Positions 35,655-57,635 are shown, numbered from the stretch's first letter. The stretch: DNA of 64,000 nucleotides from Minisyncoccota bacterium (GCA_041661305.1 JBAZUR010000001.1:167077-231076), one strand, 5' to 3'. Translations and numbers: made by a program. Notes: generated from the letters alone by a model not told the origin.

Positions 35655-36977
35655 ATGATACAAGTTATTATAGAAAAAAGCGGAGAGAAGATATCTTTTG
35701 ATATCGATACTAATTTTCGTACTGCAATTTTAGGAGAAAATGGTATCGGTAAAACAAGTATTCTTGAAAGTATTACACTAAAGTCTTCAAAAAATGATTG
35801 GTTAACTGTTCATGTTCCAGAGCGAGTTAAGATAGTTTTTCTTTCCCAAATTGAAACTAATACAGGCCTTGTTTCTGGTGGAGAACATATGAAAAAAAGA
35901 CTTGAGTATCTTTTTTCCCAAAAAGCAGATCTCTATGTATTAGACGAGCCAACAAATAATCTCGATGAGAAAAATATTTCTTGGCTTAAAAAACATATTG
36001 TTGAAAACAAATTATCAATTATATTTACTAGTCATAATATAAATTTTATTGACGATTGTGCAGAAGTAATATTTTACCTAGATTCTAAAGGTGTTGAAAA
36101 AACAAAAGAACGATGTTCTTTGTATTTAGTATCGCGTAAAAAAAAGATTGAAAGAGAGTTTTTAATGTATGATATCGCTATTAAAAAACAAGAAGAACTT
36201 AAAGATGCTGCCCGAAAAGCAAAACAACACAGCGAGGCTGGAGAAAAATGGAAGGGAACAGATAACGACAAGTATTTAAGAGGATTTAATAGAAATTCTG
36301 CTGGTAAAGGAGCGGCCACGGCAAGAATGCTTGGAGAAAGGGCAGAAAAAATAAGCGTTGAAAAACCACAACATGACCCCATTCCGAAAGCCCTGTTTTT
36401 GGACTTAGGTTTTGTCGGTAATTTATTTAACTTACTTTCTACATCTTTATCGCAAAAAAGAATTAGTCTTTTAGTAAATAGCGGAGATAAAATTCTTATT
36501 ACTGGACCAAATGGTGTCGGAAAGACCACCTTTCTCGATTATTTAGTAGGTCTTTTAAATGGTCTAGCGCAAAAAAGTGAAGATATGTTTAATCGTGGCG
36601 GTAAATTTTCATATTATTATATTTCACAAAATTGGTATGAAAATTTAAATGACCAGACGGTAGGAGAATACCTAAAAAACTTTGGTTTAAATGAGGCAGA
36701 AATCTATAGGTCAATTTCTTTTAATCATATAGACAAGTCTATTTTAAATAAAAAATTTAAGAATGTATCACCAGGGATAAGAATTAAAGTTCTTTTAGGG
36801 GCTCTTTCTTGTAAAAAATTAGATTTAATAATTTGGGATGAACCAACAAACCATCTTGATGTTATGACTCAATACGTCTTAAGGGATGCACTTCTAAAAT
36901 ACGCTGGATCTCTTATTCTTGTTTCGCATGATAGATTATTTTTGGACGATAGTTCGTTTACCCGTGTTACGTTGTAA
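35655..36977 (+). CDS. Minimal ABC-F family ATPase (two tandem NBDs, no TM domain, no NBD1 arm).
   Basis: Walker A GENGIGKTS and GPNGVGKTT. Q-loop VFLSQ. Signature VSGGEHMKKRL. ABC-F-type Walker B/D-loop LDEPTNNLD and WDEPTNHLD. Inter-NBD linker CSLYLVSRKK. The second signature is degenerate (VSPGI). Confidence 0.7.
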   Translation: MIQVIIEKSGEKISFDIDTNFRTAILGENGIGKTSILESITLKSSKNDWLTVHVPERVKIVFLSQIETNTGLVSGGEHMKKRLEYLFSQKADLYVLDEPTNNLDEKNISWLKKHIVENKLSIIFTSHNINFIDDCAEVIFYLDSKGVEKTKERCSLYLVSRKKKIEREFLMYDIAIKKQEELKDAARKAKQHSEAGEKWKGTDNDKYLRGFNRNSAGKGAATARMLGERAEKISVEKPQHDPIPKALFLDLGFVGNLFNLLSTSLSQKRISLLVNSGDKILITGPNGVGKTTFLDYLVGLLNGLAQKSEDMFNRGGKFSYYYISQNWYENLNDQTVGEYLKNFGLNEAEIYRSISFNHIDKSILNKKFKNVSPGIRIKVLLGALSCKKLDLIIWDEPTNHLDVMTQYVLRDALLKYAGSLILVSHDRLFLDDSSFTRVTL

Positions 36978-37012
36978 TAAAATGTTTAAATTAACATATA
37001 CAAGTAGCCTTT

Positions 37013-37841
37013 TTATGAGCGCTCCTTTATAAGCTTGTATAACAATGGACGGATAGTCGTAATATCTTTATGGAACGACAAGTGACCAAGCGGTAGTTTG
37101 TGGATAGCAATACCATATTTTTTGCAAATAGTACTCAGTTCCGAAATTTTAATTTGATTATCTTCTTCTCCCGCAACAACAGTACATTTTGATGGGTTAA
37201 ACATGGGATCCTTTGAAAGCATGTCGAGAGATATTAGTTCATCACTCAAGAGTTTCTTCCAGTTTTGGTTAGAATATCGATAGGCGCCACTAAATGCTTC
37301 TTTTATAAATGAATCCAATGTCTCTATTCCTGGTACTTCCGACATGGAATAGGCCGGGGATAGTGCAATCACAGACGTAATATCTTCACTGAGGCTAGTA
37401 TTAAGAGCAACCAACCCCCCCCAAACTAGACCCTAGAACCAACACGCGATTAACGTTAAAATTTTTCCCCTGCAAGACTACTCCACTTTTAAGACTGTGC
37501 GCTAATTTTCGAATATCTTCCGCTGGGTTATGGTCAAGAAACTCACCACCCGATTCCCATGTTCCTTTAAGTCTTGGGTAAAAAGCTGCATACCCCCACG
37601 AACATAAAAGATTGAGGAATGATAAAAGTTCTGGTGTGCGTGGCAAACCATCAAGAACTATTATTGCCAAGTTATAATTTTCCGGAAGACAATATTCGAA
37701 GACAACATCATCGATTGACCCGCATTGCAAACGTTCCTTTTCTCTTGAAGGTAGGATGCGGGATGCAAGGTTCTCCTTAAAATATTTAACAAGTTTTTTA
37801 GAAATACTTTCAATGACAGTGAGGTATGAATTTTTTACCAT
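37013..37841 (-). pseudogene. Alpha/beta-hydrolase (GxSxG, dienelactone-hydrolase/peptidase-like) split by a +1 frameshift inside a G8 homopolymer (minus strand; C8 on plus at 37415-37422).
   Basis: ORF 37401..37841 ends ...LVLGSSLGGVGCS*. ORF 37013..37414 begins (TTG) LVALNTSLSED. Deleting one G restores a continuous ...GSSLGGLVALNTS... nucleophile-elbow sequence. Confidence 0.65.
37415..37422. repeat. C8/G8 homopolymeric tract at the frameshift site.
   Basis: ccaaCCCCCCCCaaac read directly. Such tracts are rare in this AT-rich context. Confidence 0.8.
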
Positions 37842-37956
37842 ATTTAACTATTGTATCTCAATATTATTTTTACCAAAATAAACACAAATTTTTATATTTA
37901 CTCACAAACAATACTAGTATCAATGACATTTTGTTTTATACAATATCTTTTTTGCA

Positions 37957-38871
37957 TTATTTTTTCGTTAAAACATCCGCAATTTTTATAAAAAAATCCT
38001 CATCTACTTTCTTTTTATTGTTTATATATTCCCAAAAGAAATCTTTACAATAAAAGGAATATAAATAATAAACTCTATGAAAATTATGATTATTTTTTTG
38101 ATTAAATTTTCCAATTAATAATTCTTCCTTGTCCCTGTATTTTTTAGGATTGTATTTTTGTAAATTATATATATTCTCTTTTTCTCCAAGATAACTAAAA
38201 TCCCAGTTTGAGAATAAGTTTGCAAGTATCTCTCTTGTTATATAATACCCATTTCCAAATTCTTTTTTTAGTAAGAACCATGACTTATAGAAATTCTCTT
38301 CTCTCGGCTTAAAAACTGTTTTAATTTTCTCTAAAACATGATCCCTTTCATATAGATGTGCAAGTTCGTGAACTAAATTAATTTTCAAATTTTCAATATA
38401 ACCTTTGCTTTTTTTGTTTAGCACATAAACATAAATAGAATTTGTTCTGGAGCTTGCACTAGCGCCAACATTTTTTCTGTCCGAATAGGTAGGGATGAGA
38501 TATACGGCGACGTTCTTGACTTTAGTCCCGTAAAAATTCCCCATAGCTTTTACTATGTCCTCAGTCTCAAAATTTTCTATTATATTTTTGGTGAATATAA
38601 AATTTTTGCCATTTCTTATCTCAAAGTCTTTTTTCGAAATTATATTTTCTATATATGAAAATAGTTTTTTTTCTAATTCTTGACCACCTTCTTTTTTTTC
38701 AGTCAACAAAGATTTTATTTCTTTTAAATTTTTATGCGTAAAAAATATTTTTTTTACGTTCAGGAACTCTTCTTTTGCGAAAGATGGAAGCATTTTACCT
38801 TCTTTCTCTTTAATGAAGTTAATTACCAATCTATCAACAAAGACCTTGTAGCCGTAATTTATTTTTAACAT
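37957..38871 (-). CDS. Putative zinc metallopeptidase (HExxH), hypothetical. Very AT-rich.
   Basis: HELAHLYERDH motif with downstream Glu. 304 aa. No signal peptide obvious. Confidence 0.55.
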   Translation of the reverse strand: MLKINYGYKVFVDRLVINFIKEKEGKMLPSFAKEEFLNVKKIFFTHKNLKEIKSLLTEKKEGGQELEKKLFSYIENIISKKDFEIRNGKNFIFTKNIIENFETEDIVKAMGNFYGTKVKNVAVYLIPTYSDRKNVGASASSRTNSIYVYVLNKKSKGYIENLKINLVHELAHLYERDHVLEKIKTVFKPREENFYKSWFLLKKEFGNGYYITREILANLFSNWDFSYLGEKENIYNLQKYNPKKYRDKEELLIGKFNQKNNHNFHRVYYLYSFYCKDFFWEYINNKKKVDEDFFIKIADVLTKK

Positions 38872-38966
38872 ATCGTGGAGTTATTTATTGATAGCTATTT
38901 TAAGATTAATTTAAATGAAAACGGGCAGAAGCGCAAAACTTCTACCCGTATGACCCAGAAAGTGGG

Positions 38967-39053
38967 TCAAGCCGGGGGATTCCCGGGGTTGTTGCCCTGT
39001 TCGTCCGCTGGGGTGGAATCCCAGTCGTCGTCGCCACCAAACAACTTTTTCAT
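38967..39053 (-). CDS. Candidate small ORF (28 aa, MKKLFGGDDDWDSTPADEQGNNPGNPPA) with a strong RBS, inside a GC-rich about 160-bp element upstream of the HExxH gene.
   Basis: AAGGAGA then 7 nt then ATG on the minus strand. Local GC is far above the flanks. Could instead be a structured RNA. Confidence 0.25.
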   Translation of the reverse strand: MKKLFGGDDDWDSTPADEQGNNPGNPPA

Positions 39054-39247
39054 CTGAGTCTCCTTGCGACTTACCGGTTGAGAAATCTCAACCATTTAAT
39101 AATCCAATTAAAGCATGACGCTTTATTTGCGTTGTGTCAACGAGTTTATAATTTTATGGAAATACGGTGTGTTTAGACAAATATAACCTAAAAAAGTGTT
39201 TTAATTTTTTGCCACAATGTGTTACAAGGGGTATATTTTAAAGTAAT

Positions 39248-39700
39248 ATGAAAATAAAGATAAAATCTAAAAAGATTTTAGAAAAATCATACGGTATAAT
39301 TGTTGCTTATAAACAAAGCAGTACGGAGACAAAATACCTTATTATTCAAAGCAAAGGTACGAATGATTGGAGTTTTCCAAAAGGACATGCCGAAAAAGAT
39401 GAAACTTCAGTTGAGACTGCATTAAGAGAACTAAAGGAGGAAACCGGAATCTCGCAAATAAGTCTTATTCCCGATGTGTCATTCTCTGATAAGTACAGAT
39501 ATAAAGCCAATGGTATATGGAATCGAAAACAAGCTACATTCTTTGTTGGTATTACAGATAATCTAAATGTAAAAATACAACAAGAAGAAGTGGTAAATTA
39601 TATCTGGTCTAATTATGATGATGCGGTAAAAATTCTAACTTTTGAAAATCAACGAAAAATCTTGCGTGAAGCCTATTCTAAAATACTAGAAATCAATTAG
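39248..39700 (+). CDS. NUDIX hydrolase (Ap4A/NTP pyrophosphohydrolase-like).
   Basis: Canonical Nudix box GHAEKDETSVETALRELKEETGIS. Confidence 0.8.
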   Translation: MKIKIKSKKILEKSYGIIVAYKQSSTETKYLIIQSKGTNDWSFPKGHAEKDETSVETALRELKEETGISQISLIPDVSFSDKYRYKANGIWNRKQATFFVGITDNLNVKIQQEEVVNYIWSNYDDAVKILTFENQRKILREAYSKILEIN

Positions 39701-39798
39701 TAATAAGTCACAGTGTGTTCCTATGTACTGAAAATAATAATTATAGTATTGTAGTGTAATCCTACATAAACAGATAGATCCAGTTTAAATTGATTTTT

Positions 39799-41139
39799 AT
39801 GACCAAAGTTATTACACGTTTTCCACCTTCCCCAACTGGAGAAATTCATATTGGCAACATGCGAACCATGTTGTTTAATTATTTGTATGCAAAATATTTT
39901 AATGGAGAGATTTTCCTTAGGTTTGAGGATACTGATAAAGAAAGGAGTAAAAAGGAATACGAATCTATTGTCATAGATGGGTTACATGCTTTAGGTTTAA
40001 ATTTTGACCATGGTCCATTCAGGCAATCAGAAAGAGGTGCTATCTATAAAGAAAAATTATTAGAACTCATCAAGCTTGGACGTGCTTATGAAGCTGAAGA
40101 CTCATTGGGTGGTTCTGGAAAAGCCATTAGGTTCAAGAATCCGAACAAAATTATAACCTTTGATGACAAAGTTCGTGGTCATGTATCTATTGATTCAAGT
40201 ATTTTTGGTGACTTTGTTATTGCGAGGAATATTGATAATCCAATTTACCATTTTGCTGTTGTTGTGGATGACATGGATATGGGAGTTACCCATATAATTA
40301 GGGGGGAAGACCATATTACAAGTACTCCTAGGCAGATACTTCTACTAGAAGCTTTGGGTGGGAACATACCCGTTTATGCTCATTTGCCACTCATTGTTGG
40401 CGAAGACAAGAAGAAATTGTCTAAACGACATGGTGCCACCTCTGTCAGCGGTTTTTTAAAGCAAGGTTATTTGCCGTCTGCTTTAGTTAATTATCTTGCA
40501 TTCTTGGGATGGAACCCTGGGGGCGAACGGGAAATATACTCATTAAAAGAGTTAACTGAGATATTTGGTTTGGATAGAGTGGGCAAAAATCCAGCTAAAT
40601 TTGATTACAATAAACTCAATAATATAAATTATCATTACATGATTAATTTATCCGAAGACGAATATAGGACAAATCTTTTTATGTTTTTAAATGAAGAATA
40701 CTCCAAACTTTTTAATGCTAATTTCACTATTTCTAATACAGTAATACAAAATGTAATAAAACCAAGAATAAAAAAGTTTTCGGAAGTGTCGGACATGATC
40801 ACTAACGGGGAACTAGATTATTTTTTTAAGAAGCCACCAGTAAATTATGATTTGATTCGGTTTAAAACTGATTCTATTGAAAAGACAAAAAGCATTCTTG
40901 AAAAGTTAAAGGTATTAATAGGGAACATATCAAGTAATGACTGGAACACGGATGGTTTGAAAAATAATATATCTACGCTTTTTACAGAATACGGTGTTGG
41001 AAATGTTCTCCACCCTCTAAGAGTTGTTTTATCGGGGAAAAAAGAATCTCCAGATCCATTCACGTTAAGCTATATTCTGGGCAAAAAAGAGACTTTGGAG
41101 CGAATTGATTCCTGTCTTGCTAAGCCAAATAATTTGTAA
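39799..41139 (+). CDS. gltX: Glutamyl-tRNA synthetase, copy 1 (within the AT-rich island).
   Basis: PSPTGEIHIGNMRTMLFNYLYA (HIGH region), KLSKRHG (KMSKS), full-length anticodon-binding domain. The ORF-track start at 39790 is TTG; ATG at 39799 (MTKVITRF) preferred. Confidence 0.85.
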   Translation: MTKVITRFPPSPTGEIHIGNMRTMLFNYLYAKYFNGEIFLRFEDTDKERSKKEYESIVIDGLHALGLNFDHGPFRQSERGAIYKEKLLELIKLGRAYEAEDSLGGSGKAIRFKNPNKIITFDDKVRGHVSIDSSIFGDFVIARNIDNPIYHFAVVVDDMDMGVTHIIRGEDHITSTPRQILLLEALGGNIPVYAHLPLIVGEDKKKLSKRHGATSVSGFLKQGYLPSALVNYLAFLGWNPGGEREIYSLKELTEIFGLDRVGKNPAKFDYNKLNNINYHYMINLSEDEYRTNLFMFLNEEYSKLFNANFTISNTVIQNVIKPRIKKFSEVSDMITNGELDYFFKKPPVNYDLIRFKTDSIEKTKSILEKLKVLIGNISSNDWNTDGLKNNISTLFTEYGVGNVLHPLRVVLSGKKESPDPFTLSYILGKKETLERIDSCLAKPNNL

Positions 41140-42038
41140 TGAAATATATTGACAATTCAACTTATAAATATAACAAAACGTACCCAATAGTTAAGTTGTC
41201 GGATATTTATTTAGATCAAAAAGATGAAGGGGTGTTGTTAGAAAAAATTAAAGATTCCCCCTGGTATATATACAGTTCAGATTTGATTAAAAAAAATTCA
41301 TTCCTAAAATTAAAACAAATAATATCGTTAACCAAAGACGTTGAGTTAATAGTAAAAACATATTATCCCAATATTAATATCAAGCACCTTTCTATTGGTG
41401 GATCTTATCTTTTCAAAAACGGAGAGTCCAATGATATTGACTTTAACGTAATAGTTGAGGGTAGCTTTTTTGATTATATGGATGTTTTTGAGTTTGATGA
41501 AATTAATAAAAAATTATTTTCCAAAGTCAAAAAAATATCCTTTATGATTTTTGGCGAGGATGATTTATTGTTTGACACTAATATTGATGACACCATTGAA
41601 ACCACTAATTATATCCATACCTCGCTTTGTATGAGAGAGGGGGTTGTTTTCTCGATTAGAAATATCCTTGTGCATGGGTTCGATATATGTAAAAAAGAAA
41701 TTGACACACATAATTTGATAATAAGAATTAAAAGACAGTTGTATCATGCTCGACTCTTGGTTGACGGTAAGGTTAATATACATACAACACAAGAAGAAAG
41801 ATTAGCAAAAGCAGTTAGTCGTATATGTGAAGCAGCTTTTTACCTATCATTAGTATTTCCAGAATTAAAAATTGACCCCGAATCAGTTTTTGAAAGAGAA
41901 ACGACATTGATTACAGAAGGCAACGCAACTGGCGCTTATAGCTGGCTTAAAGAGGTTGAATTTATAGCAGATAATATTGTTGTGAAAGTTTTAAATAATG
42001 GTTATCATGACTCCGTAAGCCCCTATCGTCTAACGTAG
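41139..42038 (+). CDS. Pol-beta-superfamily nucleotidyltransferase domain protein (about 300 aa; MNT/AbiEii/CCA-like GS...DxD core).
   Basis: LSIGGSYLFKNGESNDIDFNVIV matches the hG[GS]-x(9-13)-DhDh NTase motif. Start ATG overlaps the gltX stop (TAATG). Confidence 0.5.
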   Translation: MKYIDNSTYKYNKTYPIVKLSDIYLDQKDEGVLLEKIKDSPWYIYSSDLIKKNSFLKLKQIISLTKDVELIVKTYYPNINIKHLSIGGSYLFKNGESNDIDFNVIVEGSFFDYMDVFEFDEINKKLFSKVKKISFMIFGEDDLLFDTNIDDTIETTNYIHTSLCMREGVVFSIRNILVHGFDICKKEIDTHNLIIRIKRQLYHARLLVDGKVNIHTTQEERLAKAVSRICEAAFYLSLVFPELKIDPESVFERETTLITEGNATGAYSWLKEVEFIADNIVVKVLNNGYHDSVSPYRLT

Positions 42039-42088
42039 GACGTCATCTAATTGAGATGAAAATTTAGGTTCGATACCTAGTAGGGGTT
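42019..42088 (+). ncRNA. tRNA-like cloverleaf candidate (non-canonical anticodon loop) overlapping the 3' end of the NTase gene.
   Basis: Acceptor GCCCCTA/TAGGGGT (7 bp incl. G:U). D-stem GTC/GAC. Anticodon stem TCATC/GATGA with loop TAATTGA (no U33). T-arm TTAGG-TTCGATA-CCTAG (near-consensus T-loop). Not validated by any tool. Confidence 0.2.
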
Positions 42089-42098
42089 CTAGAAAAAA

Positions 42099-43283
42099 AT
42101 GTCAAAAAAGGTGATATTAAATAGCCAGTGTCTCCCTAAAAAGAACTACCATTGTGGAAACGCTGTCAGTCATATTGTTTCTGAAATATCTTATCTTTTT
42201 TTTACTGAATTTGATAAAAAAAATGATTTTTATTTTGTGAATGATTCTTGGAATTTGCATGGTTTACCATTTGAGACCATGTACGTTGAAAAGTTTGGCT
42301 CAAATATAAATTACGAAAAAATAAAAGATTTTGCCGAGGAATGTATTAATTATGCAAAGCACGAAAAATCTTTTTTTAGCAACATTAAGCTTGGTCCAAA
42401 CATTATTGAGCATTCAGATACTGATCCGGAGTTTGTTAGATATACAACCGATATATTTCATGAATTAATAGATAGTAAAATCATTATTAAGACAGGAAAT
42501 CATTATTCTCTTGATCTATTATCAATTAAGAACACTTTAAATTTTGATGGAATAAAAATATTTCCAAGTCAACATAGAACAACAATAGTAAACGACGCAA
42601 AAATGATAAATGGTTTATATCCGATTACAAAAAATAGAGTTTTTTCGCCAAGTATTAATATAGATAATATTAACTACGTTATAAATCCTATTTTTCAGTC
42701 TTTTGTATATCCTTTGTATATAAGCGAAAAGTATGGATTTAATTACCCGGTTTTTTTGTTTACGAGTTCATCTGGACATGGAATGCTTAAGTGGCATTAT
42801 CTTAGAAATATTGTTTCTTTTGCATTGTCACAAAATCATCCGTATGAAAACCTGGTTTTGCACGGGAATATCCTGGGCGCAAACAATAGAAGAATGAGTA
42901 AACATGACAACAATGTTGTTAAGCCGTCGGATTTATATAAAATTCTACCCGATAGAAGATTTGTTAGGCACGTACTAATCAAGTCTATCTCGGACAAAGA
43001 TTTAATGCTTCAGACTGATATCTCTTTTTCAGAATTTAACAAAATAAAGAATAAATTGGACATAATACACACTAATGAATTTAATATACTAAATCCTAAA
43101 AACTTAAATATTACATTGACTAGTATTAAAAACGATTTAAAAAACTTTAAAATAAAAAAAGCTTTTGATTGTTTTGTTGATTTTATTAGAAGAGCCCAGA
43201 TAGTACAAACAGATAGCGTTGTTGATGGCGAGTTTCTTGAGTTAATAAAAATCTGTAATGTTTTTTATGGAAACAAAAAATAA
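42099..43283 (+). CDS. Degenerate GluRS-like class-I aaRS paralog (394 aa); catalytic motifs mutated.
   Basis: NYHCGNAVSHIVSEISYLF aligns with the GluRS HIGH region (HIGN..RTxLFNxLxA). VLHGNILGANNRRMSKHDNNVV aligns with the GluRS HLPLI....KLSKRHG block. Confidence 0.5.
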   Translation: MSKKVILNSQCLPKKNYHCGNAVSHIVSEISYLFFTEFDKKNDFYFVNDSWNLHGLPFETMYVEKFGSNINYEKIKDFAEECINYAKHEKSFFSNIKLGPNIIEHSDTDPEFVRYTTDIFHELIDSKIIIKTGNHYSLDLLSIKNTLNFDGIKIFPSQHRTTIVNDAKMINGLYPITKNRVFSPSINIDNINYVINPIFQSFVYPLYISEKYGFNYPVFLFTSSSGHGMLKWHYLRNIVSFALSQNHPYENLVLHGNILGANNRRMSKHDNNVVKPSDLYKILPDRRFVRHVLIKSISDKDLMLQTDISFSEFNKIKNKLDIIHTNEFNILNPKNLNITLTSIKNDLKNFKIKKAFDCFVDFIRRAQIVQTDSVVDGEFLELIKICNVFYGNKK

Positions 43284-43369
43284 TACCTAGAATTCATAAG
43301 ACTTTTGGGGTATAATTTTTCCATGAGTCTTTATAAAATTTCTTATATTTTGGTGCGTGAAGTAAAAAT

Positions 43370-44059
43370 ATGAAGCACCAAGATAATTTACTGCTTGAAA
43401 CTGCTTACCACGTAATAAGAATAATTCTCTCCCCTTTAGTTAAGTTGTTTTGGATTAAACAAGTGGTCGGCCTTGAGAATATACCGCAAAAAGGTGCTGT
43501 AATATTTGCTTTTAACCACCAAAGTTACTTTGATTTTATTTGTTTTATTGCTGTGTGCCCTCGCCATGTTCATTATCTTTCAGCAGAAAAATTTTTCACC
43601 AACTCTTTTTGGAACCCAATCATGAAAATAATGGGACAAATTAGAGTTGAAAGAACAAGTAAAGATAAAAGAGCGCTACATAATTTAATTCAAAAACATT
43701 TGGAAAACGGTAAAATTATTGGGATTTTTCCAGAGGGGACAAGGTCCCCACACCCCGAGAAAATGCTTGAAGCCTATAGTGGAGTAGCTCGATATTCATA
43801 TCACGGCAATGTTCCCGTTATCCCTGTAGGGATTAAGGGAGCATATGAGGTAATGTCTCGTTTTGACAAAAAACCAAAAGTTAGAAAAAGTATCGAAATT
43901 ATTATCGATAAACCAATTGACTTGTCGCCGTATCATCACAGTAAATTAAACCGAAAAGCTTTTAAGGTGATAACAAATAAAATAATGGTAAGAATTGCAG
44001 AACTTTCAGGAAAAGCTTATCCATATAAAATTTATCCTCCATGGCCACAGAAAATCTAG
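43370..44059 (+). CDS. 1-acyl-sn-glycerol-3-phosphate acyltransferase-like (PlsC family), copy 2.
   Basis: VIFAFNHQSYFDFI (HX4D-type block), IFPEGTRSP. Confidence 0.75.
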   Translation: MKHQDNLLLETAYHVIRIILSPLVKLFWIKQVVGLENIPQKGAVIFAFNHQSYFDFICFIAVCPRHVHYLSAEKFFTNSFWNPIMKIMGQIRVERTSKDKRALHNLIQKHLENGKIIGIFPEGTRSPHPEKMLEAYSGVARYSYHGNVPVIPVGIKGAYEVMSRFDKKPKVRKSIEIIIDKPIDLSPYHHSKLNRKAFKVITNKIMVRIAELSGKAYPYKIYPPWPQKI

Positions 44060-44706
44060 CAATTTTTGATATTGACGGAACGCTAATTCGTGGGCAAAGC
44101 CAGAAGTCTTTGCTTATGTTTCTTTACAGCGGGGGTTATATTTCACATTGGTATTATTTCAAAATAATGATTTGGTTCATCTTATATCAACTGCACTTCA
44201 TCGATAGTCCAAAAAAAGTAATGGAGTACGCTTTTTCTGTTTTTAAGAATACTCGAGAAGATAGAGCAAAAGAAATTATTGATGAATATTTTGAATTACA
44301 TTTAAAATATAAATTTTATAATGATGGCTTGAAGCTTATTGAGCAACTAAAGGGAGAGGGGTACAGAATTATATTGATATCAAATGCTATTAATTTGATT
44401 GTAGAGAGGATTGAAAAATACCTCAAAGCTGATGATTCAATTGGAACAATACTCGAGGTAGTTGACGGGCGACTTACTGGAAAGATTGATGGTTCAATCG
44501 TATATGGTTTAGAAAAAAAGAGGGTACTTGAAGAATATTCACGCAAAAACGACATAAAATTAAGCAATGCTTCTGCCTACGGAGACCATATTTCAGATAT
44601 CTCTATGTTAGAATTGGTAGGTCACCCATTTGTTGTTAACCCATCAAATAGGCTAAGTAGTATTGCAATCAAAAAGGGGTGGCCAATATTGATTTTTAAA
44701 AACTGA
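44041..44706 (+). CDS. HAD-superfamily hydrolase, subfamily IB (phosphoserine-phosphatase-like).
   Basis: Motif I IFDIDGTL. Capped HAD-IB architecture. Motif III/IV (GDHISD). Confidence 0.7.
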   Translation: MATENLAIFDIDGTLIRGQSQKSLLMFLYSGGYISHWYYFKIMIWFILYQLHFIDSPKKVMEYAFSVFKNTREDRAKEIIDEYFELHLKYKFYNDGLKLIEQLKGEGYRIILISNAINLIVERIEKYLKADDSIGTILEVVDGRLTGKIDGSIVYGLEKKRVLEEYSRKNDIKLSNASAYGDHISDISMLELVGHPFVVNPSNRLSSIAIKKGWPILIFKN

Positions 44707-44707
44707 A

Positions 44708-46297
44708 ATGAACCTTTTTTACATATCAAGTATTCTTATTTTTTTCGCCAGCTTAGCATTTGGGCTATTTGTTTATGTTAATAACACAAGAGCAAGGTTA
44801 AATAGCTCGTGGTTTTTATTTTCGTCCCTAATTGCTTTTTGGGGGTTTTCTCTTTATGGGGTGACTTCAGCAAAAGATATTGAGACCGCAATGTTATGGC
44901 AATATGCACTTGATGTAATTGCGATTTTCATTCCCGTTCTCTATGTAAATTTTATTTTAAGTTTTCTTGGAATAAAAAATAAAGTAGTCATCTATACAAC
45001 CTTTATTATAGGGTTATTATTGGCAATTTTAAGTACCACAGAATTTTTTAAGGTTGGAATAATAGATCGGTTTGGTTTTTATTGGATAAATCCCGGGCCT
45101 TACTACTTACTCTTTCCAGCGTTCTTTATTCTTTGTGTTATATACGCTTTGTTTCTTCTTTTTCAGGCATACACAAATGACAAAAATAATAAGCGTTTAC
45201 GTGCACAAATACGACTTCAGATAATTGCTGGTGTGATTGGTTTTAGTGGTGGAATTACGAATTTTTTACCACAATTTTTCAACATTTTTCCGTTCGGTAA
45301 TTATTTTGTTCTACTTTATATTTTTTTCATTAGTTATTCTATTATTAAATATAAATTTTTTGATCTCAAAACAGCTGCAACTGAATTATTCGCGGGCGGT
45401 GTTGTTATCTTATTTTTCTTTAATTTGCTTACGTCTGTCACCATTCAAGATTGGCTTATTAGGGCATTACTATTAGCTCTCGTGTCATTCTTTAGTGTTC
45501 TTATTGTGCGCGGTGTTTCAAAAGAAGTTAGGGCGCGCGAACAAATTGAGTTGTTGGCCAACGATTTAAAAATCGCGAATGAGCGTCTGCAATTTTTGGA
45601 CAAACAAAAATCGGAATTCGTTTCCATCGCCTCGCATCAACTAAGAAGCCCACTCACGGCCATTAAAGGATATACATCAATGGTTCTTGAAGGTTCGTTT
45701 GGTTTTATTGAGCCAAAAACAAGAGAGGCTGTTGATAGAATTTTTCAATCAGCGCAAAATCTTGTGGGAATTGTTGACGATCTTCTTAATATAACTCGTC
45801 TTGAGCAAGGGAGAATGGAATACTCTTTTGAAAAAGTTGATTTATCAGCACTGACAAAAGAAATTGTTGATTCACTTTACCCGAATGCATTAAATAAAAA
45901 ATTAGGCTTAACTTTTGAAAACGACAAAGCTACGGATTATTTTGTTAATGCTGACTTACTTAAAATTCGACAGGTCGTACTCAATTTGGTTGATAATGCA
46001 ATTAAATATACGCGCGAGGGAGCAGTTAAGGTAAATGTTTCTAAAATTAATAATGGAAAAGGAGTGCGCGTTGCTGTTGCCGACACCGGTGTTGGAATTA
46101 CCCCCGAGCTCCGTTCACGTCTTTTTGAAAAATTTAGTCGTGGCGATGAGGTTAGCAAGTTGCACACAAATGGCACAGGTCTTGGTTTGTATATCGCCAA
46201 GCAAATGATTGAGGCCCACAAAGGGACTATTGGTGTTAATTCTGACGGAGAGGGTAAGGGCTCAACATTCTATATAGAAATACCTACGCTTAATTAA
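44708..46297 (+). CDS. Sensor histidine kinase with N-terminal multi-TM sensor domain. Orphan, as no response regulator is adjacent.
   Basis: About 7 TM helices. HisKA H-box (VSIASHQLRSPLTAIKGY). HATPase_c N/G boxes (LVDNAIKYT, DTGVGI, GTGLGL). Confidence 0.8.
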   Translation: MNLFYISSILIFFASLAFGLFVYVNNTRARLNSSWFLFSSLIAFWGFSLYGVTSAKDIETAMLWQYALDVIAIFIPVLYVNFILSFLGIKNKVVIYTTFIIGLLLAILSTTEFFKVGIIDRFGFYWINPGPYYLLFPAFFILCVIYALFLLFQAYTNDKNNKRLRAQIRLQIIAGVIGFSGGITNFLPQFFNIFPFGNYFVLLYIFFISYSIIKYKFFDLKTAATELFAGGVVILFFFNLLTSVTIQDWLIRALLLALVSFFSVLIVRGVSKEVRAREQIELLANDLKIANERLQFLDKQKSEFVSIASHQLRSPLTAIKGYTSMVLEGSFGFIEPKTREAVDRIFQSAQNLVGIVDDLLNITRLEQGRMEYSFEKVDLSALTKEIVDSLYPNALNKKLGLTFENDKATDYFVNADLLKIRQVVLNLVDNAIKYTREGAVKVNVSKINNGKGVRVAVADTGVGITPELRSRLFEKFSRGDEVSKLHTNGTGLGLYIAKQMIEAHKGTIGVNSDGEGKGSTFYIEIPTLN

Positions 46298-49603: not shown

Positions 49604-50581
49604 ATGTCTGACCAAAAAATAATGCTTTCCGGGGTTAAACCGACAGGGGAGCCACATATTGGTAACTATTTTGGCGCTATGCGCCAGTTTGTCGCGCTTC
49701 AAGAAAGCTACAAAGGTTTTGTTTTTGTAGCTAATTATCACGCCCTAACCAACAATCCAACAAAAGAAGAACTTCTCGCCAACTCAAAAAACGTTGTTGC
49801 TACTTATCTTGCCATAGGACTTGATCCAAAAAAGACTACACTGTTCCTTCAGTCCGACATGCCGGAGGTCGCGGAGCTGATGGTTATTTTTAATAATCTG
49901 ATAACTGTGCCGTATCTTTCCAGAGCACACGCATACAAAGATGCCACCGCAAAAGGCAACGAAGCCAACGTTGGTGTTTTTGAGTATCCAGTGCTTATGG
50001 CGGCAGATATACTACTTTACGGAGCAGACGTTGTTCCTGTTGGTCAGGACCAAAAACAACATTTAGAAATTGCTCGCGATATCGCGGAGAAATTCAATCG
50101 CATTTACGGCGAGACATTCAAACTTCCCGAAGCATATATTTTAGAAGATGTTAAAACTGTGGTTGGAACCGATGGCAGGAAGATGAGTAAAAGCTACGGC
50201 AACACCATTCCTCTTTTTGCTGAATATGATGAGATAAAAAAAGCAGTGATGTCTATTCCAACCGACTCAAAAGGTGTTGAGGACGGAAAGGACCCAGAAA
50301 CTTGTAATGTGTTTGCTCTACATAAACTTTTTGCTGGGGACGAACTTCCTGCGCTTGAGAAACGCTATCGAGAAGGCGGTATTGGTTACAAAGAATCTAA
50401 AGAGATTTTAGTTGAAAGTATTGAAAAATTTATTGCACCGCTTCGAGAAAAACGCAAAGCTATTTTGGAAAACGATTCAGTTATTTTAGAGACTCTTAAA
50501 TCTGGACGTGAGACTGCACAAAAAATAGTAAAAGATAAAATGAATGAAGTCAGAGAGAAGGTTGGTTTAATAACTACATAA
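49604..50581 (+). CDS. trpS: Tryptophanyl-tRNA synthetase.
   Basis: GVKPTGEPHIGNYFGA (HIGH). KMSKSYGN. Confidence 0.9.
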   Translation: MSDQKIMLSGVKPTGEPHIGNYFGAMRQFVALQESYKGFVFVANYHALTNNPTKEELLANSKNVVATYLAIGLDPKKTTLFLQSDMPEVAELMVIFNNLITVPYLSRAHAYKDATAKGNEANVGVFEYPVLMAADILLYGADVVPVGQDQKQHLEIARDIAEKFNRIYGETFKLPEAYILEDVKTVVGTDGRKMSKSYGNTIPLFAEYDEIKKAVMSIPTDSKGVEDGKDPETCNVFALHKLFAGDELPALEKRYREGGIGYKESKEILVESIEKFIAPLREKRKAILENDSVILETLKSGRETAQKIVKDKMNEVREKVGLITT

Positions 50582-50583
50582 TT

Positions 50584-57632: not shown

Positions 57633-57635
57633 ATT

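What the first reader, a model, noticed from the sequence alone, without database searches (positions are those of the whole stretch)
41139..42098. Pol-beta nucleotidyltransferase translationally coupled to GluRS, with a tRNA-like fold at its 3' end
The NTase ATG overlaps the gltX copy-1 stop (TAATG), implying co-translation with a GluRS. Its GS...DxD core (IGGSYLFKNGESNDIDFNVIV) and about 300-aa size fit the AbiEii/MenT-type or MNT-type NTases. Some of these nucleotidylate tRNA acceptor ends and act as toxins. The sequence spanning its last codons and the following spacer folds on paper into a cloverleaf: acceptor GCCCCTA/TAGGGGT, D-stem GTC/GAC, anticodon stem TCATC/GATGA, and a T-arm with a near-consensus TTCGATA loop. 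The anticodon loop is non-canonical (TAATTGA, no U33), so it is not an ordinary tRNA gene. It could be a tRNA mimic, substrate or decoy for the flanking enzymes. In that case NTase, tRNA-like RNA and GluRS-like pseudo-enzyme would form a tRNA-directed module.
Basis: inference. Interest (0 to 1): 0.6.

Follow-up and report, generated by a model that had tools for sequence, protein, structure and literature searches.

The report
Orphan tRNA with dedicated enzyme operon
The "tRNA-like fold" is a real, conserved tRNA gene derived from glutamine tRNA whose anticodon no longer matches glutamine. In a few uncultured candidate-phyla-radiation (CPR) bacteria it always travels with a second glutamyl-tRNA synthetase, an unclassified nucleotidyltransferase and a stripped-down synthetase-like enzyme, which suggests an undescribed tRNA-dependent pathway.

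Summary
The NTase ATG overlaps the GluRS stop (TAATG). The 299-aa protein has a conserved G-S...DxD Pol-beta core. Window 42019..42089 is a tRNA: ARAGORN calls it, Rfam RF00005 scores 39.2 bits against a gathering score of 29, and the MFE is a cloverleaf with z = -3.6.

- The RNA (here "tRNA*") is a conserved gene, found in 8 lineages. Of 21 base pairs, 9 show compensatory changes and 98.8% of cells are paired.
- Its body is tRNA-Gln type. Its anticodon wanders between lineages (CUU, CUA, AUA, AUU). This lineage has A33, and one relative has only a 5-nt anticodon loop.
- It lies directly upstream of a 394-aa minimal class Ia (Leu/Met/Ile-like) synthetase-like enzyme, not a GluRS-like pseudo-enzyme.
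- It belongs to a Paceibacterota/Saccharibacteria operon: [NUDIX]-GluRS paralogue-NTase-tRNA*-aaRS-like.
- A sister operon type replaces this NTase and the tRNA with a PF01909 NTase plus a SAM methyltransferase.
- The NTase is not AbiEii/MenT or MNT. It is a rare, unclassified family, elsewhere fused to APS kinase and paired with a 2H phosphoesterase.
- The ORF/tRNA overlap is incidental.

Best reading (about 0.45): a dedicated acyl-carrier tRNA that does not depend on its anticodon. Main rival (about 0.25): programmed mistranslation, as with tRNAProX/ProRSx. I found no prior description.

The parts
39248..39700 (+). NUDIX hydrolase gene heading the module
   Evidence: PF00293 E = 7.9e-16. A NUDIX gene sits at the same position in L002, L013 and L023, and nearby in L009 and L014.
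39790..41139 (+). GluRS paralogue (copy 1; the likely true start is the ATG at 39799)
   Evidence: TIGR00464 419.6 bits; PF00749 plus the PF19269 anticodon-binding domain. It is 63-68% identical to the module-linked GluRS of L009 and L023 but only 42% identical to window copy 2.
41139..42038 (+). Pol-beta-fold nucleotidyltransferase, unclassified family 'NTase A'. The conserved part ends near residue 287 (about 42000).
   Evidence: G-S...DxD motif with invariant D99/D101/E140. AF2 model pLDDT 88.6: an NTase domain plus a C-terminal helical bundle, with residues 288-299 disordered. No Pfam, NCBIfam or PADLOC hit. Only 94 relatives among 1.84 billion representative proteins.
41980..42008 (+). 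Promoter-like site TTGTGA-17-TATCAT, ending 10 nt upstream of the tRNA 5' end and lying inside the NTase ORF
   Evidence: An equivalent TTGnnn-17-TAnnnT ends 7-10 nt upstream of tRNA* in L011/L018, L024, L023, L019 and L022, with a 16-nt-spacer variant in L009. The background rate is 49 sites per 128,000 strand positions.
42019..42089 (+). tRNA* : tRNA-Gln-derived orphan tRNA. Anticodon AUU at 42050..42052, A33 at 42049, discriminator U at 42088, C74 at 42089, no encoded CCA.
   Evidence: ARAGORN; RF00005 39.2 bits; cloverleaf MFE z = -3.59; 88 bits to family model R1; covariation in three of the four stems across 8 lineages, the D stem being invariant.
42099..43283 (+). Minimal class Ia aminoacyl-tRNA-synthetase-like enzyme (394 aa), with no CP1 editing domain and a reduced C-terminal helical domain
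   Evidence: PF00133 E = 2.2e-8 over the KMSKS region. IleRS is the best PDB sequence hit. AF2 pLDDT 92.2. Foldseek TMq 0.70-0.77 to M. mobile LeuRS, MetRS, MshC and IleRS. Conserved motifs are YHCGNA, WNLHGLPxE, NPIFQS, KWHY and PMSKH. NCBI name: 'class I tRNA ligase family protein', MFA6077629.1, Candidatus Paceibacterota.
43370..44706 (+). Variable accessory genes: PlsC-type acyltransferase (43370..44059) and HAD hydrolase (44041..44706)
   Evidence: PF01553 and PF12710. The 93%-identical relative L002 has a methyltransferase here instead, so these are not core. An NTase A-like domain is fused to a HAD domain in P0094.
57636..58988 (+). GluRS copy 2, in the MurG-GluRS-M23 peptidase synteny (context only, not part of the module)
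   Evidence: PF00749/PF19269. MurG lies at 56505..57632 and the M23 peptidase at 58981..60303. L022 (MurG upstream, GluRS-M23 downstream) and, in part, L021 (GluRS upstream, M23 downstream) show similar neighbours around the module.

Best explanation
What it is (about 0.9 confidence). Window 42019..42089 is an expressed, structurally constrained tRNA gene, here called tRNA*.
- It is a paralogue of tRNA-Gln. It keeps the Glx-type body (U11-A24, U13.G22, A46, 4-nt variable loop, U35).
- Its anticodon has moved off Gln in single-nucleotide steps between lineages: CUU, CUA, AUA, AUU.
- In this lineage it has also lost U33 and the G18G19 pair.
- It is the RNA component of a CPR-restricted operon: [NUDIX]-GluRS paralogue-Pol-beta NTase-tRNA*-minimal class Ia aaRS-like ligase.

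How it most likely works (inferred, about 0.45). tRNA* is not an ordinary decoder. It is a dedicated acyl carrier or cofactor that works independently of its anticodon.
1. It is transcribed from its own promoter together with the aaRS-like gene and matured like other tRNAs of these genomes (N73-C74 encoded, CCA added afterwards).
2. It is then esterified by the co-inherited GluRS paralogue, which can still read the Glx-type body and U35, and/or by the minimal class Ia-like enzyme. That enzyme keeps the ATP motifs but has lost the editing domain, most of the anticodon-binding domain, and the conserved Asp that holds the substrate alpha-amino group.
3. The acyl-tRNA* then serves a non-ribosomal, tRNA-dependent reaction.
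4. The NTase acts on an adenosine-terminated partner: the tRNA* 3' end, or the adenylate or product. This fits its repeated linkage elsewhere to APS kinase (an adenosine 3'-OH kinase), 2H phosphoesterase, NUDIX and carboxyl methyltransferases.

Shown: the identity, conservation and linkage of the parts. Inferred: who charges tRNA*, with what, and what the NTase modifies.
For: The tRNA is real and under selection.
- Detection and folding.
- Family model R1 finds it at 81-98 bits in 10 loci.
- 98.8% of cells are paired; 9 of 21 pairs have compensatory changes; 0 of 500 shuffles reach this; slid controls give 40-56% pairing.

Its origin is tRNA-Gln.
- The body pattern TCGTCTAA..GGACR..AATYTARGTTC hits 80 IMG/VR tRNAs: 75 are tRNA-Gln and none is tRNA-Glu.
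- Co-resident tRNA-Gln genes score 61-62 bits on R1.

Decoding does not appear to be required.
- The anticodon differs between lineages: ATT, ATA x3, CTT x3, CTA.
- A33 is fixed in window, L002 and L013.
- L022 keeps the acceptor, D and T arms but has a 4-bp/5-nt anticodon arm and a GUGC T-loop. It still sits with an NTase, the aaRS-like gene and a GluRS.
- The G18G19 pair is lost in 6 of 9 lineages. Pair 51-63 is A-U in all tRNA*, against G-C in co-resident tRNA-Gln.
- AAU makes up 38 per 1000 codons here, so an efficient mis-decoder would be costly.

Linkage is conserved.
- tRNA* ends 0-31 nt before the aaRS-like start in 7 lineages.
- GluRS, an NTase and the aaRS-like gene are co-located across 13 lineages.
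- The module GluRS forms its own clade: 63-68% identity within it, 42% to window copy 2.
- NTase A in L024 matches the family at E = 8e-40 although the gene order differs.

The aaRS-like enzyme is a reduced class Ia core with HCGN and MSKH motifs and an invariant WN(L)HG.

NTase A is linked to adenosine-ribose chemistry: an APS-kinase fusion (E = 7e-43) and 2H-NTase-APSK operons.

A conserved promoter-like site precedes tRNA*.

From the literature.
- GluRS identity elements (U35, U11-A24, U13-G22:A46, delta-47) and rejection of G1-C72 by GluRS2 (PMC9976931).
- That review also lists 49-65 and 51-63 as EF-Tu identity pairs replaced in the S. aureus non-proteinogenic tRNA-Gly.
Against: - Apart from positions 34 and 36 (and 33 in this lineage) the anticodon loop stays canonical: 7 nt, U32, U33 in 7 of 8 lineages, U35, purines at 37 and 38. 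The T-loop is canonical in 8 of 9. That is what a decoding tRNA would keep, although GluRS anticodon-domain binding could explain it too.
- No known aminoacyl-tRNA-dependent transferase (Fem/GNAT, MprF, CDPS, LanB/PEARL, L/F-transferase) is in the conserved core. The consuming step therefore has to be assigned to the aaRS-like enzyme or the NTase without direct evidence.
- Type B operons have the same aaRS-like gene and a GluRS but no tRNA* within about 5 kb, so the RNA is not indispensable in cis.
- The NTase's best structural matches are small-molecule (aminoglycoside) adenylyltransferases, not RNA-end enzymes.
- No expression or charging data exist.
Confidence: 0.45

Rival explanations
1. 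Programmed mistranslation by a dual-identity tRNA, as in tRNAProX/ProRSx. The module GluRS paralogue glutamylates tRNA*, possibly followed by amidation to Gln where U1-A72 is kept. Alternatively the aaRS-like enzyme loads another residue. The tRNA then decodes AAU here (UAU, AAG or UAG in other lineages) with the wrong amino acid, probably at low level or under stress.
For: - The architecture matches the validated precedent: a tRNA body of one identity, an anticodon of another including A34 and even the same AUU, and a distinct isoform of the cognate synthetase next door (PMC10404621, abstract and section 5).
- The module GluRS is a separate clade.
- The anticodon loop is otherwise canonical: 7 nt, U33 in 7 of 8 lineages, R37. 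Changes are concentrated at the codon-specifying positions 34 and 36, and each is a single step.
- The T-loop is canonical.
- The locus with a CUA anticodon has 12 TAA and 1 TAG stops among 13 genes (not significant).
Against: - A33 in this lineage.
- G18G19 is lost in most lineages.
- L022 has no usable anticodon loop yet keeps the module.
- Type B operons lack the tRNA.
- It gives no role to the invariably linked NTase and aaRS-like enzyme.
- AAU, UAU and AAG are among the commonest codons in these AT-rich genomes.
- From memory of Roy et al. 2007 (listed as ref. 409 in PMC9976931; that paper was not read here): Glu on a tRNA-Gln body is a poor EF-Tu ligand.
Confidence: 0.25
2. Cis-acting tRNA-mimic leader. 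The tRNA fold is the 5' leader of the aaRS-like mRNA. It is bound by the aaRS-like protein (or GluRS) for autoregulation, or is cut out by RNase P/Z to set mRNA stability and translation. It is never used as a free acyl acceptor.
For: - tRNA* always lies 0-31 nt upstream of the aaRS-like start codon, and a promoter-like site lies just upstream of the tRNA. The two are therefore almost certainly one transcript.
- In L019 the ATG follows the tRNA directly, so processing would leave a leaderless mRNA.
Against: - The complete tRNA is conserved with covariation, including the acceptor end, N73-C74 and the T-loop. This is more than the known operator mimics keep.
- In L022 the tRNA is separated from the aaRS-like gene by the NTase gene.
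- tRNA genes inside protein operons are common without being regulatory.
Confidence: 0.1
3. The NTase is a MenT/AbiEii- or MNT-like toxin that nucleotidylates tRNA acceptor ends, and the tRNA-like RNA is its decoy, antitoxin or substrate.
For: - It is a Pol-beta NTase next to a tRNA-shaped RNA.
- The module lies in a lower-GC stretch, 36-46 kb.
- Some tRNA-targeting toxins are NTases (general knowledge).
Against: - No similarity to DUF1814/AbiEii, MenT or MNT by Pfam, PADLOC, PDB profile search or Foldseek.
- There is no two-gene toxin-antitoxin layout.
- The NTase is translationally coupled to a GluRS, or in other genomes to a 2H phosphoesterase and an APS kinase.
- The module is vertically conserved with co-diverging proteins.
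- It is absent from IMG/VR.
Confidence: 0.05
4. A decaying tRNA pseudogene or a chance cloverleaf with no function.
For: A33, the odd anticodon, the missing G19 and the overlap with an ORF look pseudogene-like in a single sequence.
Against: - It is conserved in 8 lineages whose neighbouring proteins have diverged to 44-58% identity.
- 9 of 21 pairs carry compensatory changes and 98.8% of cells are paired.
- A promoter-like site is conserved.
- RF00005 gives 39 bits.
Confidence: 0.02

Closest known systems
tRNAProX / ProRSx dual-identity tRNAs of Streptomyces and Kitasatospora (Schuntermann et al. 2023, PMC10404621)
   Same: - A tRNA with the body of one amino-acid identity and the anticodon of another.
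- A34-type anticodons, including AUU.
- The anticodon differs between lineages.
- It is encoded in an operon next to a distinct, co-evolving isoform of the cognate synthetase, together with other enzyme genes. In one lineage here (L022) the module lies a few genes downstream of murG, while the tRNAProX genes are encoded directly upstream of a murG-like gene.
   Different: - The body here is tRNA-Gln, not tRNA-Pro, and the hosts are CPR bacteria.
- The constant partners are a minimal class Ia-like enzyme and a Pol-beta NTase, which the ProX operon lacks.
- This lineage lacks U33 and G19, and one relative has no anticodon loop.
- Decoding is untested here and was demonstrated for ProX.
Non-proteinogenic tRNA-Gly of Staphylococcus, dedicated to peptidoglycan bridge synthesis
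   Same: - Extra tRNA copies kept out of translation and used as aminoacyl donors.
- Pairs 49-65 and 51-63 are replaced (PMC9976931).
- From memory: loss of G18G19 and a GUGC sequence in place of GTPsiC. The L022 copy shows that same GUGC.
   Different: - Those tRNAs keep the cognate Gly anticodon and use the housekeeping GlyRS and Fem transferases.
- Here the anticodon is non-cognate, a synthetase paralogue and a synthetase-like enzyme are dedicated to the module, and no Fem-type transferase is linked.
Truncated synthetase paralogues acting on or with tRNA: GluQRS/YadB, SbzA, MshC, cyclodipeptide synthases (review PMC9437257)
   Same: A class I synthetase catalytic core that has lost tRNA anticodon recognition and been put to a non-translational acyl-transfer reaction. 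MshC is among the structural matches.
   Different: - The fold is closest to the Leu/Met/Ile class Ia synthetases, not to GluRS.
- HIGH-like and KMSKS-like motifs are kept, but the class Ia Asp of 'WDxHG' is an invariant Asn.
- It comes with its own tRNA gene and an NTase. None of the known paralogues has both.
GluRS1/GluRS2 duplication with tRNA-Gln-specific GluRS2 (Helicobacter, Acidithiobacillus; PMC9976931)
   Same: Two divergent GluRS genes occur in one genome. The tRNA beside copy 1 has a tRNA-Gln body and lacks the G1-C72 pair that GluRS2 rejects.
   Different: The linked tRNA does not carry a Gln anticodon. Whether copy 1 is a GluRS2-type enzyme was not tested.
ANT/KNTase-type two-domain adenylyltransferases (ANT(4'), AAD(9), AadA) and HalB
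   Same: An N-terminal Pol-beta NTase domain followed by a C-terminal helical bundle. These are the best, though weak, structural matches.
   Different: - Identity is only 9-15%, TM-score at most 0.36 on the query (0.47 on the target) and E at least 1.7e-3.
- There is no resistance-gene context.
- This family is fused or linked to APS kinase, 2H phosphoesterase, methyltransferases and synthetases.

Membership tests
tRNA (Rfam RF00005) | Covariance-model score at or above the gathering threshold over the full-length model | tested here: met
   39.2 bits against a gathering score of 29, model positions 1-71, E = 1.9e-7. ARAGORN also calls it.
tRNA (Rfam RF00005) | Cloverleaf supported by covariation in homologues | tested here: met
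   8 lineages, 98.8% of cells paired, 9 of 21 pairs with changes on both sides, 0 of 500 shuffles as high.
Canonical elongator tRNA | 7-nt anticodon loop with U33 and a purine at 37 | tested here: not met
   The window loop is UAAUUGA, with A33 at 42049 and G37. U33 is present in the other 7 lineages. L022 has a 5-nt loop.
Canonical elongator tRNA | G18G19 in the D-loop pairing with Psi55 and C56 of a T-Psi-C loop | tested here: not met
   The window D-loop is AACGUA, with a single G. GG is lost in 6 of 9 lineages but present in co-resident tRNA-Gln and tRNA-Glu. The window T-loop UUCGAUA is canonical.
tRNA-Gln / Glx-type tRNA | Glx-type body: U11-A24, U13.G22, A46, 4-nt variable loop (delta-47), U35 | tested here: met
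   All are invariant in the 8 lineages. The body pattern retrieves tRNA-Gln in 75 of 80 IMG/VR hits.
tRNA-Gln / Glx-type tRNA | Gln anticodon (YUG) and U1-A72 | tested here: not met
   The window has anticodon AUU and a G1.U72 pair. U1-A72 is kept only in the CUU subgroup (L011, L018, L024).
Dual-identity tRNA with dedicated synthetase isoform (tRNAProX type) | Body of one identity combined with the anticodon of another | tested here: met
   A tRNA-Gln body with Asn, Tyr, Lys or amber anticodons.
Dual-identity tRNA with dedicated synthetase isoform (tRNAProX type) | An adjacent, phylogenetically distinct isoform of the synthetase matching the tRNA body | tested here: met
   Module GluRS clade: 63-68% identity among window copy 1, L009 and L023, and 42% to window copy 2.
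Dual-identity tRNA with dedicated synthetase isoform (tRNAProX type) | Decodes the non-cognate codon on the ribosome | not testable with these tools
   This needs reporter assays or proteomics. A33, the lost G19 and the L022 variant argue against it as the conserved function.
AbiEii / MenT (DUF1814) NTase toxins | Sequence or structural membership of PF08843/DUF1814, with an adjacent antitoxin | tested here: not met
   No Pfam hit in any of 19 members at E <= 1. No PADLOC hit. No MenT or AbiEii among the 50 best-ranked Foldseek matches shown. The neighbours are GluRS, tRNA and the aaRS-like gene.
MNT (minimal NTase of HEPN-MNT pairs) | A ~100-150-aa NTase with an adjacent HEPN partner | tested here: not met
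   The protein is 299 aa with two domains. MNT-type chains appear only at E about 0.5-1.5 with TMq 0.12-0.18. No HEPN gene is adjacent.
Aminoglycoside/antibiotic NTases (ANT/KNTase) | Firm sequence or structure membership | tested here: inconclusive
   These are the top Foldseek hits, but at E 1.7e-3 to 5e-2, 9-14% identity, and TM-score 0.23-0.36 on the query (0.24-0.42 on the target). The PDB profile search gives only a 0.044 hit to an unrelated small NTase domain.
Pol-beta nucleotidyltransferase superfamily | G-[SG] ... [DE]h[DE]h motif plus a third carboxylate on the NTase fold | tested here: met
   GGS...DID are invariant or nearly so, plus E140. The AF2 model is an alpha/beta NTase domain and all the best fold matches are NTases.
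Class Ia aminoacyl-tRNA synthetase (downstream gene) | Rossmann catalytic fold with HIGH and KMSKS motifs | tested here: met
   TMq 0.70-0.77 to LeuRS, MetRS and IleRS. H18-C-G-N21 and M266-S-K268-H are conserved.
Class Ia aminoacyl-tRNA synthetase (downstream gene) | CP1 editing domain (Ile/Leu/Val type) and a full anticodon-binding domain | tested here: not met
   394 aa against about 820-940 aa for canonical IleRS and LeuRS. There is no editing-domain hit, whereas the window's own LeuRS has one. Only about 90 helical residues follow the stem-contact region.
Class Ia aminoacyl-tRNA synthetase (downstream gene) | Conserved Asp of the 'WDxHG' motif, which binds the substrate alpha-ammonium group (its role is taken from memory of IleRS/MetRS/LeuRS structures) | tested here: not met
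   Invariant W51-N52 in 23 sequences, aligned to GWDCHGLPIE of IleRS.

The most novel reading that the evidence does not exclude
CPR bacteria carry a previously undescribed orthogonal pair: a minimal, anticodon-blind class Ia-like ligase and a tRNA-Gln-derived carrier tRNA. With a dedicated GluRS and a Pol-beta NTase, this pair builds or delivers a non-canonical acyl group on tRNA. That would be a new tRNA-dependent pathway, possibly for cell-envelope or metabolite synthesis, or a natural template for genetic-code expansion. It would be neither translation nor any known aa-tRNA transferase system.
Probability: 0.3. Interest if true: 0.85.

Novelty: new variant of a known kind. Interest (0 to 1): 0.7.

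Why it matters
- Dedicated tRNA/synthetase pairs outside the standard set are rare: Sec, Pyl, tRNAProX and the Staphylococcus cell-wall tRNA-Gly. Each changed how coding or tRNA-dependent chemistry is understood.
- Here a tRNA-Gln-derived RNA keeps full tRNA architecture while its anticodon drifts, and once disappears. It is locked to a 394-aa class Ia core that lacks the editing domain and most of the anticodon-binding domain.
- If the pair charges, it would be a naturally orthogonal, anticodon-independent system from organisms with minimal genomes. That is of interest for synthetase evolution (a near-minimal class Ia enzyme), for CPR physiology and for genetic-code engineering.
- It also defines two uncharacterised NTase families by their context.
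- Filtered Rfam scans miss this tRNA, so standard pipelines may miss such genes.

Tried and rejected
- **Rfam over 2.4 kb and over the whole window** found nothing at the site. This was a filter artefact, because the 131-nt scan gives 39.2 bits.
- **tRNA-Glu origin.** I first thought the body was tRNA-Glu-like (the L020 tRNA-Glu scores 71 bits). I rejected this for tRNA-Gln after the body pattern retrieved 75 tRNA-Gln and no tRNA-Glu.
- **Are the type B 317-351-aa proteins NTase A homologues?** hhalign matched only the G-S/DxD motif. They are a separate PF01909 family.
- **Diverged tRNA* in type B loci.** A search with filters off found none.
- **Phage origin.** Neither the aaRS-like protein nor NTase A occurs in IMG/VR.
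- **Amber-suppressor reading for the CUA locus.** Stop usage of 12 TAA to 1 TAG is suggestive, but the sample is too small.
- **Generic promoter/terminator scan.** Uninformative on its own: 27 sites against 25.6 expected.
- **The tRNA 3' acceptor strand as a Shine-Dalgarno for the aaRS-like gene.** The spacing is inconsistent across loci, so I dropped it.
- **Literature.** Seven searches found no description of this module.

Full report
**1. Observation check**

The window is AT-rich DNA from a Candidatus Paceibacterota (CPR) bacterium. The aaRS-like protein it encodes is NCBI MFA6077629.1.

GluRS ORF 39790..41139 is a bona fide GluRS (TIGR00464 419.6 bits; PF00749 plus PF19269). Its TAA stop shares its last A with the ATG of ORF 41139..42038.

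That 299-aa ORF carries IGGSYLF..NDIDFNVIV. In an alignment of 19 homologues S85, S89, D99, D101 and E140 are invariant and G87/G88 are in at least 90%. This is a Pol-beta-type NTase signature.

At 42019..42089:
- ARAGORN calls a tRNA with anticodon ATT.
- Rfam's tRNA model gives 39.2 bits (gathering score 29, E = 1.9e-7) over the full model when 131 nt are scanned.
- The MFE structure is the cloverleaf (-26 kcal/mol, z = -3.59).

The same tRNA was not reported in the 2.4-kb e-value scan or the whole-window gathering scan. That is a speed-filter loss, not a low score.

**2. The ORF/tRNA overlap is incidental**

The last ~12 residues of the ORF (YHDSVSPYRLT) have no counterpart in homologues, apart from the 93% relative P0002, which shares the same tail. 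They are disordered in the AlphaFold model (pLDDT < 50 for residues 288-299; overall 88.6). In L009 the NTase stops 50 nt before the tRNA. In L024 the NTase lies downstream of the aaRS-like gene.

**3. The RNA is a conserved gene**

I collected loci through homologues of the NTase and of the downstream protein. A tRNA lies 0-31 nt upstream of the aaRS-like start codon in window/L002/L013, L009(=L015), L014, L023, L019, L024 and L011/L018.

A covariance model built from 8 sequences (R1) scores these at 81-98 bits. It also finds a degenerate copy in L022 at 61 bits.

On the 8-lineage alignment:
- 98.8% of cells form standard pairs.
- 9 of 21 pairs show changes on both sides: 4 in the acceptor stem, 3 in the anticodon stem and 2 in the T stem.
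- No shuffle of 500 reaches this, and sliding the partner strand drops pairing to 40-56%.

A pseudogene or a chance fold is excluded.

**4. It derives from tRNA-Gln, and its anticodon is not conserved**

The body motif TCGTCTAA..GGACR..AATYTARGTTC retrieved 80 tRNAs from IMG/VR. Of these, 75 are tRNA-Gln (62 UUG, 13 CUG) and none is tRNA-Glu.

Co-resident tRNA-Gln genes in L019 and L023 share the D-arm and variable loop and score 61-62 bits on R1. The L020 tRNA-Glu scores 71 bits.

tRNA* keeps U11-A24, U13.G22, A46, a 4-nt variable loop and U35. The tRNA identity review lists these among the determinants for GluRS. It does not have G1-C72, the pair that tRNA-Gln-specific GluRS2 rejects (PMC9976931).

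The anticodons are CUU (L011, L018, L024), CUA (L019), AUA (L009, L014, L023) and AUU (window group). Starting from Gln CUG, these form a chain of single-nucleotide steps.

Within the loop, U32, U35 and purines at 37 and 38 are constant. U33 is constant except in the window lineage, which has A33 in three independent assemblies.

Other departures from a working elongator:
- G18G19 is disrupted in 6 of 9 lineages but intact in the neighbouring tRNA-Gln and tRNA-Glu genes.
- Pair 51-63 is A-U in every tRNA*, against G-C in co-resident tRNA-Gln.
- The L022 copy has a 4-bp stem with a 5-nt loop in place of the anticodon arm, and a GUGCGAAC T-loop, yet it keeps the acceptor, D and T stems.

Like ordinary tRNAs of these genomes, tRNA* encodes N73-C74 but not CCA. 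It should therefore be matured by the general machinery.

**5. The module**

I built profile HMMs from the session's alignments and ran them on all loci.

*Type A:* [NUDIX]-GluRS-NTase A-tRNA*-aaRS-like.
- Window, L002, L013, L023, L014 and L009 have this order.
- L024 has GluRS-tRNA*-aaRS-like-NTase A.
- L019 lacks GluRS.
- L011 and L018 are cut after the aaRS-like start.

*Type B:* GluRS-NTase B-SAM methyltransferase-aaRS-like.
- Found in L010/L012, L020, L021, L016 and L025.
- No tRNA* lies within about 5 kb, even with filters off.
- In L020 a canonical tRNA-Glu(UUC) follows GluRS.
- L022 is intermediate: degenerate tRNA*-NTase B-aaRS-like-x-GluRS.

After removing near-duplicates, the counts across lineages are:
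- a GluRS within the locus in 11 of 13;
- a Pol-beta NTase next to the aaRS-like gene in 12 of 12 assessable;
- tRNA* in 8 of 13, including every NTase A-type locus.

NTase B is a different family. hhalign matches only the motif, and all 5 members hit PF01909.

Window GluRS copy 1 groups with the module GluRS of L009 and L023 (63-68% identity). It is only 42% identical to window copy 2 (57636..58988), which lies in the MurG-GluRS-M23 synteny. The GluRS is therefore a co-inherited paralogue, not a chance neighbour.

Neither the aaRS-like protein nor NTase A is found in IMG/VR.

**6. The proteins**

*NTase A*
- It has no Pfam, NCBIfam or PADLOC match.
- It has only 94 relatives at E <= 1e-3 among 1.84 billion representative proteins.
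- The confident model is an NTase domain plus a helical bundle.
- Its best PDB matches are ANT(4')-IIb, AAD(9), AadA and HalB. These are weak: E >= 1.7e-3, 9-15% identity, TM-score at most 0.36 on the query and 0.47 on the target.
- No MenT or AbiEii structure appears among the 50 matches shown, and MNT chains appear only as marginal hits. Its refutation condition, 'firmly an antibiotic NTase', is not met either.

Outside the module the same family sits in 2H phosphoesterase-NTase A-APS kinase operons (L004 lacks the kinase; L006-L008 have it). It is fused to a strong APS-kinase domain in P0013 (E = 7e-43). More distant members are fused to LD-carboxypeptidase S66, to PCMT, PEMT and class I methyltransferases, and to HAD. 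APS kinase phosphorylates the 3'-OH of an adenylyl group. I infer that NTase A makes or handles an adenylyl-terminated substrate.

*aaRS-like protein*
- pLDDT 92.2.
- Class Ia fold: TMq 0.70-0.77 to the CP1-less Mycoplasma mobile LeuRS, MetRS, MshC, IleRS and CysRS.
- IleRS is the best sequence match.
- It keeps H18-x-G-N21 and M-S-K268-H, has no editing domain, and has only about 90 helical residues after the KMSKS region.
- The class Ia 'WDxHG' Asp is an invariant Asn. From memory of IleRS, MetRS and LeuRS structures, that Asp binds the substrate alpha-ammonium group. The activated acid may therefore not be a standard alpha-amino acid, or the enzyme may bind an acyl-tRNA instead.

**7. Expression signals**

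A TTGnnn-17-TAnnnT element ends 7-10 nt upstream of the tRNA 5' end in the window (41980..42008), L011/L018, L024, L023, L019 and L022. L009 has a 16-nt-spacer version 15 nt upstream.

In the window this pattern occurs 49 times in 128,000 strand positions. That gives about 3e-3 per locus for the observed placement. The flanks of the window, L023, L019, L022 and L009 are otherwise dissimilar.

tRNA* and the aaRS-like gene are thus very probably one transcription unit that starts at the tRNA.

**8. Mechanism**

The data show a tRNA-shaped RNA under selection for its acceptor, D and T architecture and for U35. It is not under selection for a particular codon specificity. It is tied to a GluRS paralogue, a minimal ATP-motif-bearing class Ia core and an NTase.

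My best reading (about 0.45) is a dedicated, anticodon-independent acyl-carrier tRNA. It would be charged by the module GluRS and/or the minimal ligase and consumed in a non-ribosomal reaction. The NTase would act on the adenosine end of the tRNA or of an adenylate.

Support:
- the L022 variant without an anticodon loop;
- A33;
- the lost G19;
- the changed 51-63 pair;
- the high frequency of the codons that would be misread (AAU is 38 per 1000).

Against:
- the loop is otherwise canonical;
- no known aa-tRNA transferase is in the core;
- type B operons lack the RNA.

The main rival (about 0.25) is programmed mistranslation. The architecture mirrors tRNAProX/ProRSx, including an AUU anticodon and an adjacent distinct synthetase isoform (PMC10404621).

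**9. Novelty**

Seven full-text searches found no description of this tRNA, of the minimal class Ia-like family or of either NTase family in this context. The searched library is incomplete, so an earlier report cannot be excluded.

The nearest precedents are tRNAProX/ProRSx, the Staphylococcus non-proteinogenic tRNA-Gly, and truncated synthetase paralogues such as GluQRS, SbzA and MshC (PMC9437257, PMC9976931). I class the finding as a new variant of a known kind: an orphan or dual-identity tRNA with dedicated enzymes. There is a real chance that the chemistry is new.

**10. Limits**

- All loci are metagenomic fragments. I could not inspect the whole tRNA, GatCAB or GlnRS complement of any genome.
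- No expression or biochemical data exist.
- Some identity-element and EF-Tu arguments rest on cited reviews or on memory, and are marked as such.

Noticed in passing
window 9677..12502 (+): The housekeeping LeuRS (941 aa) has a NUDIX domain (PF00293, E = 3.7e-14, residues 378-509) inserted right after its editing domain. With the free-standing NUDIX gene at the head of the module, this makes two NUDIX-synthetase associations in one genome.
   Followed up: no
window 56505..60303 (+); L022 1907..10461: MurG-GluRS copy 2-M23 peptidase synteny. In L022 the degenerate module is inserted between the MurG side and GluRS-M23. The tRNAProX operons of Streptomyces are also encoded upstream of a murG-like gene.
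   Followed up: partly
window 36000..46000: A lower-GC stretch (0.31-0.34 against 0.38-0.40 in the flanks) contains the whole module, plus an ABC-type ATPase and several ORFs with no family hit. It may be an acquired island.
   Followed up: no
L065 3302..3349, L094 4069..4116, L096 6020..6067 (IMG/VR contigs of 90-401 kb): Three IMG/VR viral contigs (two over 360 kb) carry tRNAs with the same D-arm and T-arm as tRNA*. The T-arm is identical to the L019 copy. Their loop is CUUAUAC (anticodon UAU), which may be another anticodon-shifted Gln-type tRNA.
   Followed up: no
P0050, P0079, P0082, P0085, P0094, P0090, P0091, P0104: NTase A-like domains occur fused to LD-carboxypeptidase S66, to PEMT, PCMT and class I methyltransferases, and to HAD. 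They also occur inside giant 2-7-thousand-residue proteins.
   Followed up: partly
L004 4466..5864; L006 4478..6402: NTase A also occurs without the tRNA or the aaRS-like gene. In these loci it overlaps an upstream 2H phosphoesterase (PF13563) gene and is followed by an APS kinase. In P0013 the APS kinase is fused to it.
   Followed up: partly
L021 4123..5195: NTase B is split over two reading frames (4123-4359 and 4335-5195), which is either a frameshift or an assembly error. The public gene call there is an ORF on the opposite strand.
   Followed up: no
window 42019..42089: Method note. Rfam cmscan in gathering mode over the 64-kb window, and in e-value mode over 2.4 kb, both missed a tRNA that scores 39 bits in a 131-nt scan. 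AT-rich atypical tRNAs can be lost by the speed filters.
   Followed up: yes
window 49604..51972 (+): A TrpRS/TyrRS-type (PF00579) gene and an Asp/Lys/Asn-type class II synthetase gene are adjacent. With LeuRS, AlaRS and two GluRS genes, the window is unusually rich in synthetases.
   Followed up: no
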